Positions 54,001-60,000 of a DNA stretch of 64,000 bases are shown piece by piece (position 1 is the first letter of the stretch; each line of letters begins with the position of its first letter). Position numbers: made by a program. The DNA is from Fimbriosthenelais zetlandica (Eukaryota), in NCBI GenBank assembly GCA_977030845.1, contig OZ365110.1, positions 29,512,001-29,576,000 of the forward strand, written 5' to 3'.

Positions 54001-57000
54001 TGATGGAAGCTAATGAACAAATTGAAGAACTGAAGAAACAGATTTCTGATGTCAACCAATGGAATGACACGCTCAACAAGAAGAGTAAGTAGAGAGATTA
54101 TTACGTGCTCTCAACTATTGGATCATAGTGACTCTACTAGTGCCTAGTTCTTACATACATGTAGTTGCATTTAGATTGTGGATCTCTTTCAAATTCAATG
54201 ACACATGCTGCATTGTTTCGGTATGGTGTTTTATGAATTAATACATCTCTGGGTTAACACCATTCATCTTTTATATTAGGGATGATAATTTATTTTTAGG
54301 ATGAATTAATTGTTAATATGAAGTAGAAATAAGAACTTTAAGATGACAAATTTAAAGTATTGTGCTATTGTGCTAGCTTTGGATAAACTCAAATACTGTG
54401 TCATAGCGTCATGTTCTGTCTGCATGTATGTACATAAACACCCGTATCTTGACTAGTTAGAAAAATTGAAGGATTAAATTTGTGACCAGAATTTCTAGTT
54501 GAATATGTATTTGAAAAATCCTTGCAGATGCGGACGTAGTTTATGATGATATTAACATTTATGAAAACTTGAAAGGTATTTAGAAACAAATAGGAAAAGA
54601 TTGGTATTTGTAAAATTGCCCCAGAATAGAGTTATTAGTGGTAGTATTCCCCATTACATGTAATCAGTATTTTTTGGGAAAGATGCGTTATTTTATTCTC
54701 TGAAGTTTTGGAATGGGAATGATCGGCAAAAGTAACGATGGCTACTGAAATCAGATAGGGTTAAATGTACAGACAAGAGTGTTTCTAAAATAGTTGCAAA
54801 TTAGAAAAATGATCAGCAGCCTATCCCTCTCCCTCTAGATCATTAGTGCATCTGCCCATCCCTCTGTTGTCTCCTCATAAATTCCCCATTTCAATCTTTC
54901 GAGCCACAGCCTATGAGTAGTTCTTATTGTTAGGGTTGGATATAAGCGTCAATGATGTTACACAGTTCTTATTTTGGGTCAAAAATGCCTTTTCTTAGAT
55001 TCGAAATGACTATTCTGGGGCACTACATTTATATAAAAAAATTTAGGTTATAGTGTAAGTTCTGCCTGTGAGGCTTTTGTGATGAGTGGTCAATCCTCAG
55101 GCTTCCCCCTTTTTAGCTTTAACGCATTTATGCATGTATTATATAGAGCTTTTGGGTACGTTCACGGTACTTAAGGTCAATACCTGATTATCTCTTCATA
55201 TAAATACACTTTTTATGCTAAAAACCTTTTACAAGTTAAAACCTGAGAATAAGAATTTATTAGTGAAATGTAAATTATTATTGTTGATATATATTGAAAA
55301 CTAATAATTATTGATTTCAACAATATTAATAAGCGCTTTTATTAGTTTTATATCGATTCATTAGTTTCGTACATCTGTTCTTTAAGATAATGAACTGGAG
55401 AACCGACTGGATGTTGCGTCTCAAAAGCTGGATATAGCTGAACAGAAGTTACGGCCCCCTCCACCCCCACCTCCACCTCCACTTCCACCCGCAGGACTGT
55501 TCTCGTATGTGTCTGTTAAACTCTTTAACTATTTTCTACTTATTTCCCACCACCTGACTCACTCCTGTATGACAACTTCACTTTCTCAAAAATAATCTCT
55601 TCTGTTTTAGACCTCTAAAAAAGCTGATCAAGCAGTCAAAACCAGGACCTAAATCTTCAGGCAAACCACCAGGTAGGATAAAATAAGTCTATAAGATTAT
55701 ATCTGAATTATATGTTACTGTCTCCTTTGTAGCATAAATTCCTCATTTTACATCTGACTGTTTATTTTGAACTTCTTCTCAGATCCGAGTCAACAGAAGT
55801 ATGAGGATGCTCTGAAGGAAATGATGAATAGAATCAAGACAGGGAACACACTACGTCCTGCGGCTCAAAGACGGGTAGGTGTTTCCTAAAAAAACAGAAC
55901 ACAATGTAGTTTCAATCTAGTATGCAAGGTAGTAACAGATAAGGGAGGGATGGAGAAGGAAAAGGTTAGATCAGTTTTCGTCTGGTCATCGCGTTAACGA
56001 CACAGATTTAGCTAATTTAGCGGGGGGGGGGGGGGGGGTGGGAGGGAGTATTTTACCTTTTGCTGTTGTTTTTAGCCAGCCCTCGCATACTAAATCCTGC
56101 CTCCTTAATGCATCAGGTTTTTGCTTGGTGCCAAGGAAATAGCTTATGAATTTTAGTCCTTGGTCTAACGTATTTTGTCGAATTTTCCTGCTATTGCTTC
56201 ACTGGAAGGCTGAAGAAGAGGTTGGGCTTAACTTTTTTTTATTGCACAAGATTCCCCTTTGTAATGAATTAGTCTATCTTTATTGTATGTACAATTTATA
56301 CTATTTTATAAGTATGCACAGGGAAGTTTCGAGGCCTGTTGGTTTTATTCATTGCTTGCATGTACCGTTACATTTTGAATATTTAACTGGATTGAATTTC
56401 GGTGGATCCTTTTTAATGCATGGAGAGGTTTTGAGAAATATTCCTTACTAGTCATGATGTTTTCAGACTTTTCCTTTCCCTCCCATGAATGTGTATGAAT
56501 TTGCTGATTTTGTGGATACAAATTTGCAACTATCCTCTATCCAGAATGTAGCTTATAGAGGGAGGAAACCAGTAAGTAAAACAGATAGAACCGTGCATAA
56601 TAACTCCCCCTCAGTCTGCATTGCTTTATAGCAACCTGTATCATCGCATCTGCCCTGGAGTAGAGATGTGAATTCAACGGACTAAATGTTGATAATGTGT
56701 GTTTGCATTAGTTGCTCCAAAATGTACAGCCATTTATAGATTGATCAGACCTGCACTCTTGATTAGTGTAGTCCCTAAATCTAATAGTAGTCCTAACAAA
56801 GTCAGCTTTCATTTTCAAGAGGTGTACTCTCTTGGAAAAATCATCATCGTCTTGTCTGTCTTGTATTTTTTTAATTTTATTTACATTGCTTCACTTCATC
56901 TTGTCCCACCAATTTGTGAATTGGCAATTGTATTTTATAGAGACCTGGTATTCCGGCTGATTTCAAATTGAGACGAAATGTAAGGTCATTAAATTAAGGA

Positions 57001-60000
57001 CATAATATATGAATTATATCATTTCTAAAGCTGATGACACACCTTTGAAATACTGGGTTTATATGAATAAGTTAACCAAGCAAAACTTATTAAACATAAG
57101 CCTTTCATTTCTGACCCTAAAATTGTTTTCCTAAGATGGTGTTTAACCTGTTTTGCCAAGTGTCATTACATGTTAGAATAGCATGTTCACACTAATCCAA
57201 CATGCTTCAGGTGTCTGTGTCTCCATTTACTGCTTGAGTCTCCTCTTCACAAGGATTTGACAGAAAAGTGTCGGGCCTACTGATTTTTATTTCTTCATAA
57301 ATTTAGCCCATTAATTCTTTTTTCCGTTGTTACTTGATATTTTATGCATGGTTCATTGGATTGTTTTCTTTCGTGTTCACCAAAGATTGAAATGTGTTGT
57401 ATATCATGGAATAGCTTTTGTTCAAAATAAGCATCCTAGAAATTTTGTTTTGTTTAAAATTCAATTTTGACATAGCGGCTAGTTTTAATGATGTCATGCC
57501 TTTTAATTGCAAGTTAATAATTACACCTTAAATGGAAGCTTTTAATATGGTAGTTCAACTTCAACACCTCATCCTAAGTCCACCATTTCAGCTTCATTCC
57601 CATTGTTGACTTCTGATTAGAATGAATGACATCAACTTTGATCAAAATGGGATATTCTTCATTACTATAACCTATATCGTACTTTGAAGAATATACTATA
57701 AATAAGCATAGATAATGCGTTGTATGCTATGATCAGATGTAGTTGGAATACTAAAAGCTGTGTTATCCTTTTAACCTATAATATTAACGCAATCCAACTT
57801 GATGCAGTTATTAATGCACTACAATTTGCTGAACATTTGACAGCACTGTTGAGTCAATATGTACCTAGACTATTAAGCGTACACGAAATACCCCTATTAA
57901 TGTAATTAACATCTGCATTTTGTACCCTTTGAGTGCACTTTACACCTGAATGTACCTGTATATCGGATTGGTTACACTGTGGAACGTGACCATGACTCAT
58001 TTGTTTGGTCGTCAATGAAATATAGTCTGATTATTATAAATTTATTTTCAATGTGCAGTTAAAGTAACTTTGTCACAGAATTTTAAAAAATCGATAAAAT
58101 TGGTTTAGAGTACTGAGACCTGAGAGTGTCTAATGACAATGAATCGTGCTGTATTAAAGTTTTCATACCCGATACTTTCAGCCGTCACTTCCTGATTTGA
58201 ACCCTAAAGATAGCTCAGGAAACTCAGCAATGGGGGAGCTCAATTCTATATTGGTATGTAAATTGTAATCACTTCTCTCTGTTGTTACTTAGGTCCTTCC
58301 ATTCGCATTTCGTTCTCTCAATTTCTCAGATTTCCTTAAGTGTTACAAATGCACAAATTATGATTTTATGAGTAAAAAATCTTTTTTCACAGACTCACAT
58401 TAAAGCAAACCGGTCTATGTCTACGGGCAACCTCTTCGAAGACAAGAATTCGTCAGGAGAGATTAGTGAGCTCCATGCTGCCTATCTCCGCATTCAAGGC
58501 AACAAAAAGAATGCCAATCTTGACCAACAACAGTGGCATGCAGGCGATCCACCCAACCGTAACCTCTCACTAATTGAGGAGGAGGAAGAGAAGGAGAGTT
58601 TGAGGTAGGCAGTTGAAATTCTTAGTATGACCTCTATTCTCTTTTAAGTTATAAATTAGTTTGATTTAAGGAAAAAAATCTCTGAGAAATGTGGCTGCCT
58701 ACATGCCTAAATCAGGTCTGTCCCAAAATGTACAAGAGGTATCGCTTTTCGATTAGTTGCAAATTTAAAAGTGATGGGCTTGAACATAGACCTCCTAAAC
58801 AGATTGCTATGAAAGAGTTGGATGATTGTAATTTACTTCTGTGTTAACTTCTGTTGCTTCTGATGGAAACCACTGTTTCACCTACAGCCCTCGACCAAGC
58901 CCAAGCATTCAGTAATGATATAGAATGGTGAACATCATCGTACTTTATCTCTTAAAGCAATTTACTATAGACTTCTTACACTCTCACAGTATCTACCACT
59001 GCTTTTCATTTTCTAACTATAATGCACTATCTTGCACTGACTTGAGTCCTACACCGATATATCTGGGGTTCAGGAGGTAGCTTGGTATCTACTTTCCAAA
59101 TTAGACCCTCCTTTATCCATGTACCAATAAATTTTATCAGGGAAAAGGGAGTTTGTGCCTCCTAGCACTAGTCTTTATGCCATAAAACTGCACTTCTGGA
59201 CCCACCCTGGTGTGGCCAGTGACAGTTTCACAACCATAACTTAGATGCTTACCTACTTAACTCAACTCCGGTAAACTTTGCATTGGTTGGTGATCATGGT
59301 CTTGGGTATTTCTGCCATTTTTCTTTCCTTGATATTGACAAATGCGGTGCTCAATATAACCTTATAATTCGAATATTCTTATCCTGAATTAGTTTATAGT
59401 TATGTAAGGAGATTCGACAATTTATAAATGTCTTATTTATGAATTTTATTGCAAATGTAATATAGCTCTACTTGTATACAAATACATACTACTACATGTA
59501 TCCCTATTAGCATTTATTAGTTTTTCTAGTAAATTCGCCGTAGTGAATATTTATTTTTTGTGAATTTTTCAATTTCAGTTCACAGTCTAGTAGAGAAAAG
59601 ATTGATAGTCGACGTAAAATTTCGCCCGTTTCAGAGGAGGGAATGAATGAGCAGCCCAGGCGGTTGGAATCAAGCTATCTCTGAGCAATTCCAAGTTGAT
59701 TTTCTTCGCTTCTTTCTCGAACATGAGCTTTAATCGGAGATCCCATGCGCAATTGCATTTTTAAAAGGTTTCTGACGTTCTAATATCTTTAGTACATTCT
59801 AGGTTCATTATACAACCAGTAAGCATAAAGTTCGTACCATATTCAAAATGCCAAATAAGACATGATTATTGCTGGCACAAATGTCATGTATGCAAAAAAT
59901 GTCCTGTAGCTATAGATTTCTGCAAATATTACATTGTTTACTCTTTACTTGTGATACGAATGAAGTGCCCAATAACCTAAAGAGAATGTCTTGGATCAGG

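What the first reader, a model, noticed from the sequence alone, without database searches (positions are those of the whole stretch)
56545..58915. Candidate neural-type microexons and a stop-switch in the shootin-1 C-terminal region
A 27-nt phase-0 exon with a GTAAGT donor and an upstream TGC matches the SRRM3/4 microexon signature and inserts a basic peptide right after the WH2-like actin-binding segment. A 24-nt phase-2 exon gives ...SPSIQ* if its donor is skipped. Vertebrate Shtn1 switches between long and short isoforms through small neuron-specific exons in the same region. Equivalent switches here would push that mechanism back to invertebrate deuterostomes.
Basis: partly seen in the sequence, partly recalled or inferred. 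Interest (0 to 1): 0.65.

Follow-up and report, generated by a model that had tools for sequence, protein, structure and literature searches.

The report
Candidate microexons in a shootin-like gene
Two tiny frame-keeping exon candidates (27 and 39 bases) in the tail of an animal shootin-like gene have splice signals better than chance, a third (24 bases) does not, and nothing here shows that any of them is nerve-specific.

Summary
A 27-nt open segment (56545-56571) sits between CAG and GTAAGT. A 24-nt segment (58888-58911) is followed by G+TAA. Both lie in the 3' part of a + strand gene (44632-59684) with the shootin domain order: coiled coils, proline run, basic stretch, WH2-like motif, disordered tail.

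The 27-nt candidate, and the neighbouring 39-nt exon (56941-56979), stand out from 96 frame-keeping AG..GT pairs in their interval. Simulations gave two such candidates in 13 of 2000 runs and one or more in 192 of 2000. They are probably real exons. Whether either is skipped, or is neural, cannot be tested here.

The 24-nt candidate does not stand out. Its donor is the poorest of 16 (4 of 9 consensus positions). A similar decoy, with a better donor, lies in the same intron. A strongly coding-like last exon (59579-59684) can be reached in frame with or without it.

The upstream TGC is uninformative, since 7 of 15 acceptors have one. The vertebrate parallel is misdescribed: there, skipping of exons 15 and 16 shifts the frame, and the neuron-specific product comes from skipping. 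No conservation or RNA evidence could be obtained. The lineage is unresolved.

The parts
44632..44728 (+). Probable exon 1 with the start codon (97 nt, leaves one base)
   Evidence: Best-scoring ATG-to-donor segment upstream of 49481 in the right phase, codon log-likelihood +9.33. Inferred, not confirmed by homology.
49481..49533 (+). Exon 2 (53 nt), coiled-coil part
   Evidence: Open frame, CAG acceptor, GTGAGT donor
50488..50548 (+). Exon 3 (61 nt)
50999..51093 (+). Exon 4 (95 nt)
52663..52834 (+). Exon 5 (172 nt)
   Evidence: Homology search of this exon found nothing.
52976..53073 (+). Exon 6 (98 nt). Its acceptor also has TGC at -20.
53233..53409 (+). Exon 7 (177 nt), coiled coil. The only exon with relatives found.
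   Evidence: P0001 (92% identical, 63 aa) and P0003 (48%, 70 aa) are single-exon ORFs that run on past the exon's end
53653..53799 (+). Exon 8 (147 nt)
53931..54084 (+). Exon 9 (154 nt), coiled coil
   Evidence: Only weak matches to coiled-coil Pfam families, all below cut-off.
55387..55504 (+). Exon 10 (118 nt) with the proline run
55611..55672 (+). Exon 11 (62 nt), lysine-rich stretch. Needed to keep the frame between exons 10 and 12.
   Evidence: TTTTAG acceptor, GTAGGA donor, open in the required phase; donor 7 of 9
55783..55874 (+). Exon 12 (92 nt) with the WH2-like motif; ends in phase 0
   Evidence: Pfam WH2 not matched at E<=10.
56545..56571 (+). Candidate 27-nt microexon (the finding's first item)
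   Evidence: AG-free zone 78 nt (1.2% of 7545 AG-AG gaps are as long). 13 of 18 pyrimidines, donor 7 of 9 with GTAAGT. The only site in 128 kb under the strict pattern. Codon score -1.47, uninformative.
56941..56979 (+). Itself of microexon size and just as optional for the frame.
   Evidence: AG-free zone 119 nt (0.2% of gaps as long); donor 7 of 9; codon score -0.75
58182..58253 (+). Exon 14 (72 nt), phase 0 to 0
58393..58604 (+). Exon 15 (212 nt), leaves two bases. If its donor is not used, the frame stops at TAG 58606-58608.
   Evidence: No relatives found.
58888..58911 (+). Candidate 24-nt exon (the finding's second item)
   Evidence: AG-free zone 70 nt, 12 of 18 pyrimidines, donor GTAATG with 4 of 9, the lowest of 16 donors. 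Codon score +1.56; 8% of open intron windows score as high.
58913..58915 (+). TAA reached if the 24-nt segment's donor is read through
59126..59131 (+). First AATAAA after that stop (211 nt on). Lies inside the intron before the last exon.
   Evidence: Three AATAAA in the 2.3 kb scanned, so its presence is not significant.
59579..59684 (+). Probable last coding exon (34 codons after the junction codon, then TGA 59682-59684)
   Evidence: TTTCAG acceptor in the required phase. Codon log-likelihood +19.9, against a maximum of +4.45 in 794 open intronic windows of equal length.

Best explanation
The interval is the tail-coding part of a shootin-like gene on the + strand: 16 exons plus two optional candidates, 44632-59684.

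Between the exon with the WH2-like motif (55783-55874) and the next longer exon (58182-58253) lie two very short exons of 27 nt (56545-56571) and 39 nt (56941-56979). Each is a multiple of three with phase 0 on both sides. Each has a long AG-free zone, a pyrimidine run and a GTAAG-type donor. I take both to be genuine exons that add 9 and 13 mostly basic or proline- and glycine-rich residues to a disordered linker after the WH2-like motif. Either can be left out without breaking the frame, so they are natural cassette exons. Whether they are skipped anywhere, and under which regulator, is open.

The 24-nt segment (58888-58911) is most likely not a regulated stop switch. The reading frame continues in a clearly coding last exon (59579-59684), which is in frame from 58604 directly as well as through the segment. 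The segment's donor is the worst in the gene. The stop behind it is simply G+TAA. At most it is a minor alternative exon, or an alternative end that would swap a 35-residue tail for a 9-residue one.

Shown: the coordinates, phases and signal strengths, and the coding score of the last exon. Inferred: actual use of the sites, and the family assignment.
For: Gene model. Exon lengths sum to whole codons in every block.

The 27-nt and 39-nt exons.
- In the 2.3-kb interval between exons 12 and 14, 96 frame-keeping open AG..GT pairs exist. Only these two reach donor >=7 of 9, pyrimidines >=11 of 18 and AG-free zone >=35 nt.
- AG-free zones are 78 and 119 nt, against 20-88 nt for 12 confident exons. 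Of 7545 AG-AG gaps in the window, 1.2% and 0.2% are as long.
- Window-wide, 7 sites meet the thresholds on both strands, these two included. Simulations gave >=2 sites in 13 of 2000 runs.
- Under GTAAGT, >=12 pyrimidines and an AG-free zone >=60 nt, the 27-nt candidate is the only site in 128 kb.
- No repeat copies were found in these introns.

The last exon. Codon score +19.9 against a null maximum of +4.45 (n=794), and GC 0.46, equal to the exon mean.

The 24-nt segment. Donor 4 of 9 against 6-8 for the other 15. The decoy at 59047-59076 has a better donor (6 of 9), equal pyrimidines (12) and a shorter AG-free zone (57 against 70 nt).

Neighbouring gene. A convergent enolase-like last exon at 61146-61547(-) (Enolase_C, E=3.7e-6) leaves little room for further exons.
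Against: No transcript evidence of any kind, and no conservation test.

The codon score of the 27-nt candidate is -1.47. 22% of 4071 open intronic windows score as high, and only 5% of 382 leave-one-exon-out windows of true exons score as low. That leans towards non-coding. The model was trained mostly on coiled-coil exons, though, and linker exons also score near zero.

One site of this quality arises by chance in about 10% of simulated intervals (192 of 2000), and the thresholds were set after the fact.

For the 24-nt segment, the acceptor is good (AG-free zone 70 nt), GC is 0.58 and the codon score is positive. Real use cannot be excluded.

The shootin assignment rests on domain order and my recall of vertebrate sequences. 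No named shootin was hit exon by exon, and the joined protein was not searched.
Confidence: 0.45

Rival explanations
1. The 27-nt exon is a neuron-specific, Srrm (eMIC)-dependent microexon. The 24-nt exon is a composite internal/terminal exon whose donor choice switches between a long and a short tail. Together they would be the invertebrate counterpart of the vertebrate Shtn1 long/short switch.
For: 27 nt, frame-keeping, strong donor, long AG-free zone, and a TGC between a possible branch point (CTGAT near -41) and the AG. These features are listed for SRRM3/4 or eMIC-dependent exons (passages). There is a stop one base after the 24-nt segment, and an AATAAA 211 nt later followed by a GT-rich stretch. 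The gene encodes an actin-linked protein, a class in which neural microexons are described (PMC12056172, passages).
Against: TGC upstream is present at 7 of 15 acceptors, and here it lies 5' of the proximal pyrimidine run rather than after it. The 24-nt donor scores 4 of 9, and a comparable decoy with a better donor lies in the same intron. The vertebrate switch works by skipping two exons with a frameshift, and its neuron-specific product is the skipped form. A 24-nt exon cannot do that, and the tails would differ by only 26 residues here against 177 in rat (633 against 456 aa). eMIC-dependent exons are poorly conserved outside vertebrates. No tissue data.
Confidence: 0.1
2. The 27-nt segment is a chance pseudo-exon that is never spliced in. 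The true junction runs from 55874 to 56941, or straight to 58182.
For: Its codon score is not coding-like (-1.47). One such site arises by chance in about 10% of simulated intervals. By my recall, not by any search, the vertebrate linker between the WH2 motif and the next conserved motif is short enough to need neither short exon.
Against: Two such sites fall in one interval (13 of 2000 simulations). It is unique in 128 kb under the strict pattern. An AG-free zone of 78 nt is typical of used acceptors.
Confidence: 0.35
3. The 24-nt segment is a constitutive internal microexon: the splice path runs 58604 to 58888 and 58911 to 59579 in all transcripts.
For: Good acceptor (AG-free zone 70 nt, 12 of 18 pyrimidines). 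GC 0.58 in an intron of 0.35, and a positive codon score. Serine- and proline-rich residues fit a disordered tail.
Against: Poorest donor of 16. A comparable decoy exists, and the frame does not need the segment.
Confidence: 0.2

Closest known systems
Vertebrate Shtn1 long/short switch (shootin1b/SHTN1L versus shootin1a/SHTN1S)
   Same: Alternative processing in the part of the gene after the WH2 domain changes the C-terminal tail. The domain order is the same: coiled coils, proline-rich region, basic stretch, WH2, tail (PMC12768439, PMC6704158, passages).
   Different: In vertebrates two cassette exons (15 and 16) are skipped together. The frame then shifts to a stop in exon 17, giving 456 instead of 633 aa. 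The short form is the neuron-specific one, and PTBP2 keeps the exons in. Here every candidate is a multiple of three, so skipping never shifts the frame. A stop would need read-through of a donor plus an intronic poly(A) site. I did not see the sizes of vertebrate exons 15 and 16: Zhang 2019 and Ergin & Zheng 2020 are not held.
SRRM3/4 (eMIC)-dependent neural microexons
   Same: Length 27 nt, frame-keeping, in a disordered surface linker of a cytoskeletal protein. Strong donor, long AG-free zone, and a TGC upstream of the acceptor (against the descriptions).
   Different: The TGC lies before, not after, the pyrimidine run next to the AG, and is as common at ordinary acceptors of this gene (7 of 15). 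Neural inclusion and Srrm dependence, which define the class, are untested.
Composite internal/terminal exons with intronic polyadenylation (general knowledge, no call)
   Same: A weak donor is followed at once by an in-frame stop, with an AATAAA 211 nt downstream inside the intron.
   Different: There is no evidence that the site is used. AATAAA is frequent here (3 in 2.3 kb), and the change to the protein would be small.

Membership tests
Shootin (SHTN1) family | Sequence homology to a named shootin | tested here: inconclusive
   Exon-by-exon searches found no named relative. Exon 15, longer proteins: none of 27 candidates. Exon 5, longer proteins, E<=10: none of 19 candidates. Exon 7 against 1.84 billion representatives: 3 hits, namely two unnamed single-exon ORFs and one 3237-aa protein matched at 31% identity in four stretches. 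PDB: nothing relevant. Pfam returned no shootin family for any exon. The joined protein was not searched, by instruction.
Shootin (SHTN1) family | Three coiled-coil domains at the N-terminal side (PMC6704158, PMC12768439) | tested here: inconclusive
   Exons 2-9 read as heptad-like and charged. Exon 9 gives only sub-threshold matches to coiled-coil Pfam families, and the atlas neighbours of exon 7 are generic coiled-coil clusters at 0.81-0.83. No coiled-coil predictor was run.
Shootin (SHTN1) family | Proline-rich region, then a basic (NLS) stretch, then a WH2 domain (PMC12768439) | tested here: inconclusive
   The order is present by eye: proline run in 55387-55504, lysine-rich 55611-55672, WH2-like motif in 55783-55874. 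Pfam WH2 does not match that exon at E<=10.
SRRM3/4 (eMIC)-dependent neural microexon | Very short (<=27-51 nt), frame-keeping exon | tested here: met
   27 nt, phase 0 on both sides
SRRM3/4 (eMIC)-dependent neural microexon | UGC enhancer between the pyrimidine tract or branch point and the AG | tested here: inconclusive
   TGC at -20, 5' of the pyrimidine run at -15 to -3, but 3' of a possible branch point near -41 and of a distal pyrimidine tract. TGC within 40 nt upstream at 7 of 15 acceptors.
SRRM3/4 (eMIC)-dependent neural microexon | Long AG-free zone and strong 5' splice site | tested here: met
   78 nt; donor 7 of 9 with GTAAGT
SRRM3/4 (eMIC)-dependent neural microexon | Inclusion restricted to neurons and dependent on Srrm | not testable with these tools
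   No RNA data and no perturbation data are available.
Vertebrate-type Shtn1 isoform switch | Skipping of cassette exons shifts the frame to a premature stop in the last exon | tested here: not met
   The candidates are 27, 39 and 24 nt, so skipping keeps the frame. A stop arises only by donor read-through.

The most novel reading that the evidence does not exclude
An invertebrate shootin-like gene carries a tandem pair of regulated microexons (27 and 39 nt) directly after its WH2-like motif. Their neuron-specific, Srrm-dependent inclusion would tune actin coupling. A composite terminal exon would give a second tail. Isoform control of the shootin tail would then have arisen independently of, or before, the vertebrate exon 15/16 switch.
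Probability: 0.1. Interest if true: 0.45.

Novelty: new member of a known kind. Interest (0 to 1): 0.25.

Why it matters
If the 27-nt and 39-nt exons are used and regulated, they would be a small, testable case of microexon tuning next to an actin-binding motif, in a clutch protein studied so far only in vertebrates. They would also show isoform control of the shootin tail outside vertebrates. As it stands this is an annotation-level prediction. It corrects the gene model (a 62-nt exon, a coding last exon, a likely first exon) and ranks the candidates: the 27-nt and 39-nt exons are worth an RT-PCR, while the 24-nt stop switch has no support beyond its geometry.

Tried and rejected
(1) Homology, exon by exon. 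Searches found nothing. One search found only two unnamed single-exon ORFs (P0001, P0003) and one long protein with a weak repeated match. So there were no spliced relatives to compare at the microexon positions.

(2) PDB searches with three exons and Pfam with 14 exon translations gave no family.

(3) Atlas look-alikes of exon 7 were generic coiled-coil clusters at 0.81-0.83, which is no evidence.

(4) A codon log-likelihood test for the short candidates had too little power and was trained mainly on coiled-coil exons. I use it only for the 102-nt last exon.

(5) A repeat or transposon origin of the candidates: no second copy in the window.

(6) RNA genes in the window: 0 Rfam families at gathering score and 0 tRNAs.

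(7) Lineage through the neighbouring nanos gene. The window's protein groups with three unnamed proteins (99/98) and lies outside the cnidarian group of 11 rows (85/89). Its place among hemichordate, sponge, chiton and shark sequences is unresolved. 22 hits were used for the tree: 19 picked from the named rows of the 120 listed, plus the 3 best unnamed; the rest were left out. An invertebrate deuterostome origin is neither confirmed nor contradicted.

(8) My first idea, that 58888 onward is simply the terminal exon, was dropped when the coding exon at 59579 turned up.

(9) An alternative acceptor at 55790 to mend the frame between exons 10 and 12 was dropped in favour of the 62-nt exon.

(10) Paper search was badly framed and gave nothing on shootin.

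Not done: any search or fold of the joined protein (left out by instruction), and any look at related genomes. The genome collection holds only bacteria and archaea, so I did not scan it.

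
Full report
WHAT IS THERE

The window is eukaryotic DNA without N. Nothing suggested a human origin.

On the + strand lies a gene whose exons I placed by open frames, splice sites and phase arithmetic:
- a likely first exon, 44632-44728
- nine further exons up to 55504, coding for heptad-like charged sequence and ending in a proline run
- a 62-nt lysine-rich exon, 55611-55672. The frame requires it, and I found it only after noticing that the phases of its neighbours did not fit.
- exon 12, 55783-55874, with a WH2-like motif
- a 39-nt exon, 56941-56979
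- a 72-nt exon, 58182-58253
- a 212-nt exon, 58393-58604
- a last coding exon, 59579-59684

Block by block, the exon lengths add up to whole codons.

THE OBSERVATION

Both items are exactly as described. 56545-56571 is 27 nt between CAG and GTAAGT, open in phase 0, coding nine residues of which three are basic, with a TGC at -20. 58888-58911 is 24 nt between CAG and GTAATG. Reading through that donor gives a stop at 58913-58915.

IS THE 27-NT CANDIDATE MORE THAN CHANCE?

I compared it with the whole window and with its own interval.

- AG-free zone. It measures 78 nt. Only 1.2% of the 7545 AG-to-AG gaps on both strands are as long. The 12 confident exons have 20-88 nt.
- Donor. It matches 7 of 9 consensus positions, as good as any in the gene.
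- Decoys in the interval. Of 96 frame-keeping, open AG..GT pairs between exons 12 and 14, only two reach donor >=7, pyrimidines >=11 of 18 and AG-free zone >=35 nt.
- Window-wide count. Seven sites reach these thresholds on both strands, these two included.
- Simulations. First-order Markov simulations of the interval gave a mean of 0.10 sites, with >=1 site in 192 of 2000 runs and >=2 in 13 of 2000.
- Strict pattern. Under GTAAGT, >=12 pyrimidines and AG-free zone >=60 nt, the candidate is the only site in 128 kb.

The thresholds were chosen after seeing the candidates, so the figures are optimistic.

Against it: its codon score is -1.47. 22% of 4071 open intronic windows do as well, and only 5% of 382 leave-one-exon-out windows from true exons score as low. 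The model is dominated by coiled-coil exons, and the linker-type exons score near zero too, so I give this little weight.

The introns hold no repeat copies.

My reading is that the 27-nt and 39-nt segments are probably both real exons. The evidence does not say which, if either, is optional. Both are multiples of three between phase-0 borders.

THE SRRM3/4 SIGNATURE

A TGC within 40 nt upstream is found at 7 of the 15 acceptors examined. One of these is the 98-nt exon at 52976, where it also lies at -20.

The described architecture is a branch point and pyrimidine tract set back from the AG, with UGC after the tract, towards the AG (bioRxiv 10.1101/2024.09.17.613571, passages; PMC8797185, passages). 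Here the TGC lies 5' of the pyrimidine run that abuts the AG. It does lie 3' of a possible CTGAT branch point near -41 and of a distal pyrimidine tract.

The long AG-free zone and strong donor fit the class. The UGC neither helps nor hurts. Neural inclusion, which defines the class, is untestable here.

THE 24-NT CANDIDATE

Its acceptor is good (AG-free zone 70 nt). Its donor matches 4 of 9 positions, the lowest of 16 donors; the others have 6-8.

Among 24 frame-keeping pairs in its intron, a decoy at 59047-59076 has a better donor (6 of 9), the same pyrimidine count (12) and a shorter AG-free zone (57 against 70 nt). With any GT donor, such patterns number 29 + 20 in the window.

Downstream I found an acceptor at 59579 in the right phase, followed by 34 codons and TGA. 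Their codon score is +19.9, against a maximum of +4.45 among 794 open intronic windows of the same length. This is the true last coding exon.

That exon is in frame both through the 24-nt segment and directly from 58604, so the segment is dispensable. The stop switch would need donor read-through and use of the AATAAA at 59126. That hexamer occurs three times in the 2.3 kb scanned. The switch would replace a 35-residue tail by a 9-residue one.

A convergent enolase-like gene ends at 61146-61547 on the - strand (Enolase_C, E=3.7e-6), so no further exons are likely.

COMPARISON WITH WHAT IS KNOWN

Vertebrate Shootin1 has three coiled coils, a proline-rich region, a nuclear localisation signal, a WH2 domain and a C-terminal F-actin-binding part found only in the long form (PMC12768439 and PMC6704158, passages).

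The long/short switch is the joint skipping of exons 15 and 16, which puts a stop in the 5' part of exon 17 (633 against 456 aa in rat). The short form is the neuron-specific one, the long form is broadly expressed, and PTBP2 keeps the exons in during early axon growth. Sources: PMC4673418 section 7 and Fig. 6 legend; PMC8670310, PMC12652946 and PMC12221596, passages.

The mechanism, a frameshift by skipping, cannot apply to exons of 24, 27 or 39 nt.

Neural microexons and the eMIC domain are dated to the bilaterian ancestor, and the exons themselves are poorly conserved outside vertebrates, even in amphioxus (PMC8797185, passages). A neural microexon in an invertebrate would therefore be a new example, not a new depth.

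I found no paper on shootin splicing outside vertebrates in searches. One search ('shootin-1-like') listed one insect transcriptome paper, seen as a listing only. Zhang 2019 and Ergin & Zheng 2020 are not held; I know them only through the papers above.

FAMILY AND LINEAGE

No tool confirmed the shootin assignment.
- Exon-wise searches gave no named relative.
- Pfam returned no shootin family, and its WH2 model does not match.
- The PDB holds nothing similar.
- The atlas gave generic coiled coils.

The assignment rests on domain order and on my recall of vertebrate sequences. That step would settle the family.

Exon 7 does have two relatives in the protein library, at 92% and 48% identity. Both are single-exon ORFs that run on past the exon's end. 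Related genomes therefore exist in unannotated form, but their DNA could not be reached.

The neighbouring nanos gene (41219-42217, - strand; zf-nanos E=2.7e-24) groups with three unnamed proteins and falls outside the cnidarian sequences. Otherwise it sits on an unresolved fork with hemichordate, sponge, chiton and shark sequences. The deuterostome origin stays open.

VERDICT

The 27-nt exon, and equally the 39-nt one, is a reasonable prediction worth an RT-PCR. The 24-nt stop switch, the SRRM signature and the vertebrate parallel are not supported.

It is a new member of a known kind at best, and of modest interest until RNA data exist.

Noticed in passing
window 41219-42217 (- strand): Intronless nanos gene (333 codons from the first ATG; zf-nanos E=2.7e-24), divergent from the shootin-like gene. 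The closest relatives are unnamed proteins at 36-46% identity over 89-97% of the length.
   Followed up: partly
window 61146-61547 (- strand): Last exon of an enolase-family gene (Enolase_C profile positions 249-286 of 296, E=3.7e-6) with a proline- and glutamate-rich tail. It converges on the shootin-like gene. Further - strand ORFs at 62248-62643 and 63244-63540 gave no Pfam match.
   Followed up: partly
window 55611-55672 and 59579-59684: Two exons that the frame requires, or the codon score strongly supports: a 62-nt lysine-rich exon between the proline-rich and WH2-like exons, and the last coding exon.
   Followed up: yes
window 58605-58608: The donor of the 212-nt exon overlaps an in-frame TAG.
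   Followed up: no
window 48549-48569 (+ strand): A 21-nt AG..GT segment in intron 1 of the same gene, with an AG-free zone of 121 nt, 12 of 18 pyrimidines and donor 7 of 9. It was scored only in phase 0, whereas that intron is phase 1.
   Followed up: no
window 59047-59076 (+ strand): A 30-nt frame-keeping decoy in the last intron, with a better donor (6 of 9) than the 24-nt candidate.
   Followed up: partly
window 56023-56042 and 52159-52178: A run of G in the intron after exon 12 matches, in reverse complement, a 20-nt stretch inside the intron before exon 5. This is low-complexity sequence only.
   Followed up: no
proteins P0001 and P0003: The protein library holds unspliced single-exon ORFs of relatives of exon 7 (92% and 48% identity). 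No full-length annotated relative exists among 1.84 billion representatives.
   Followed up: partly
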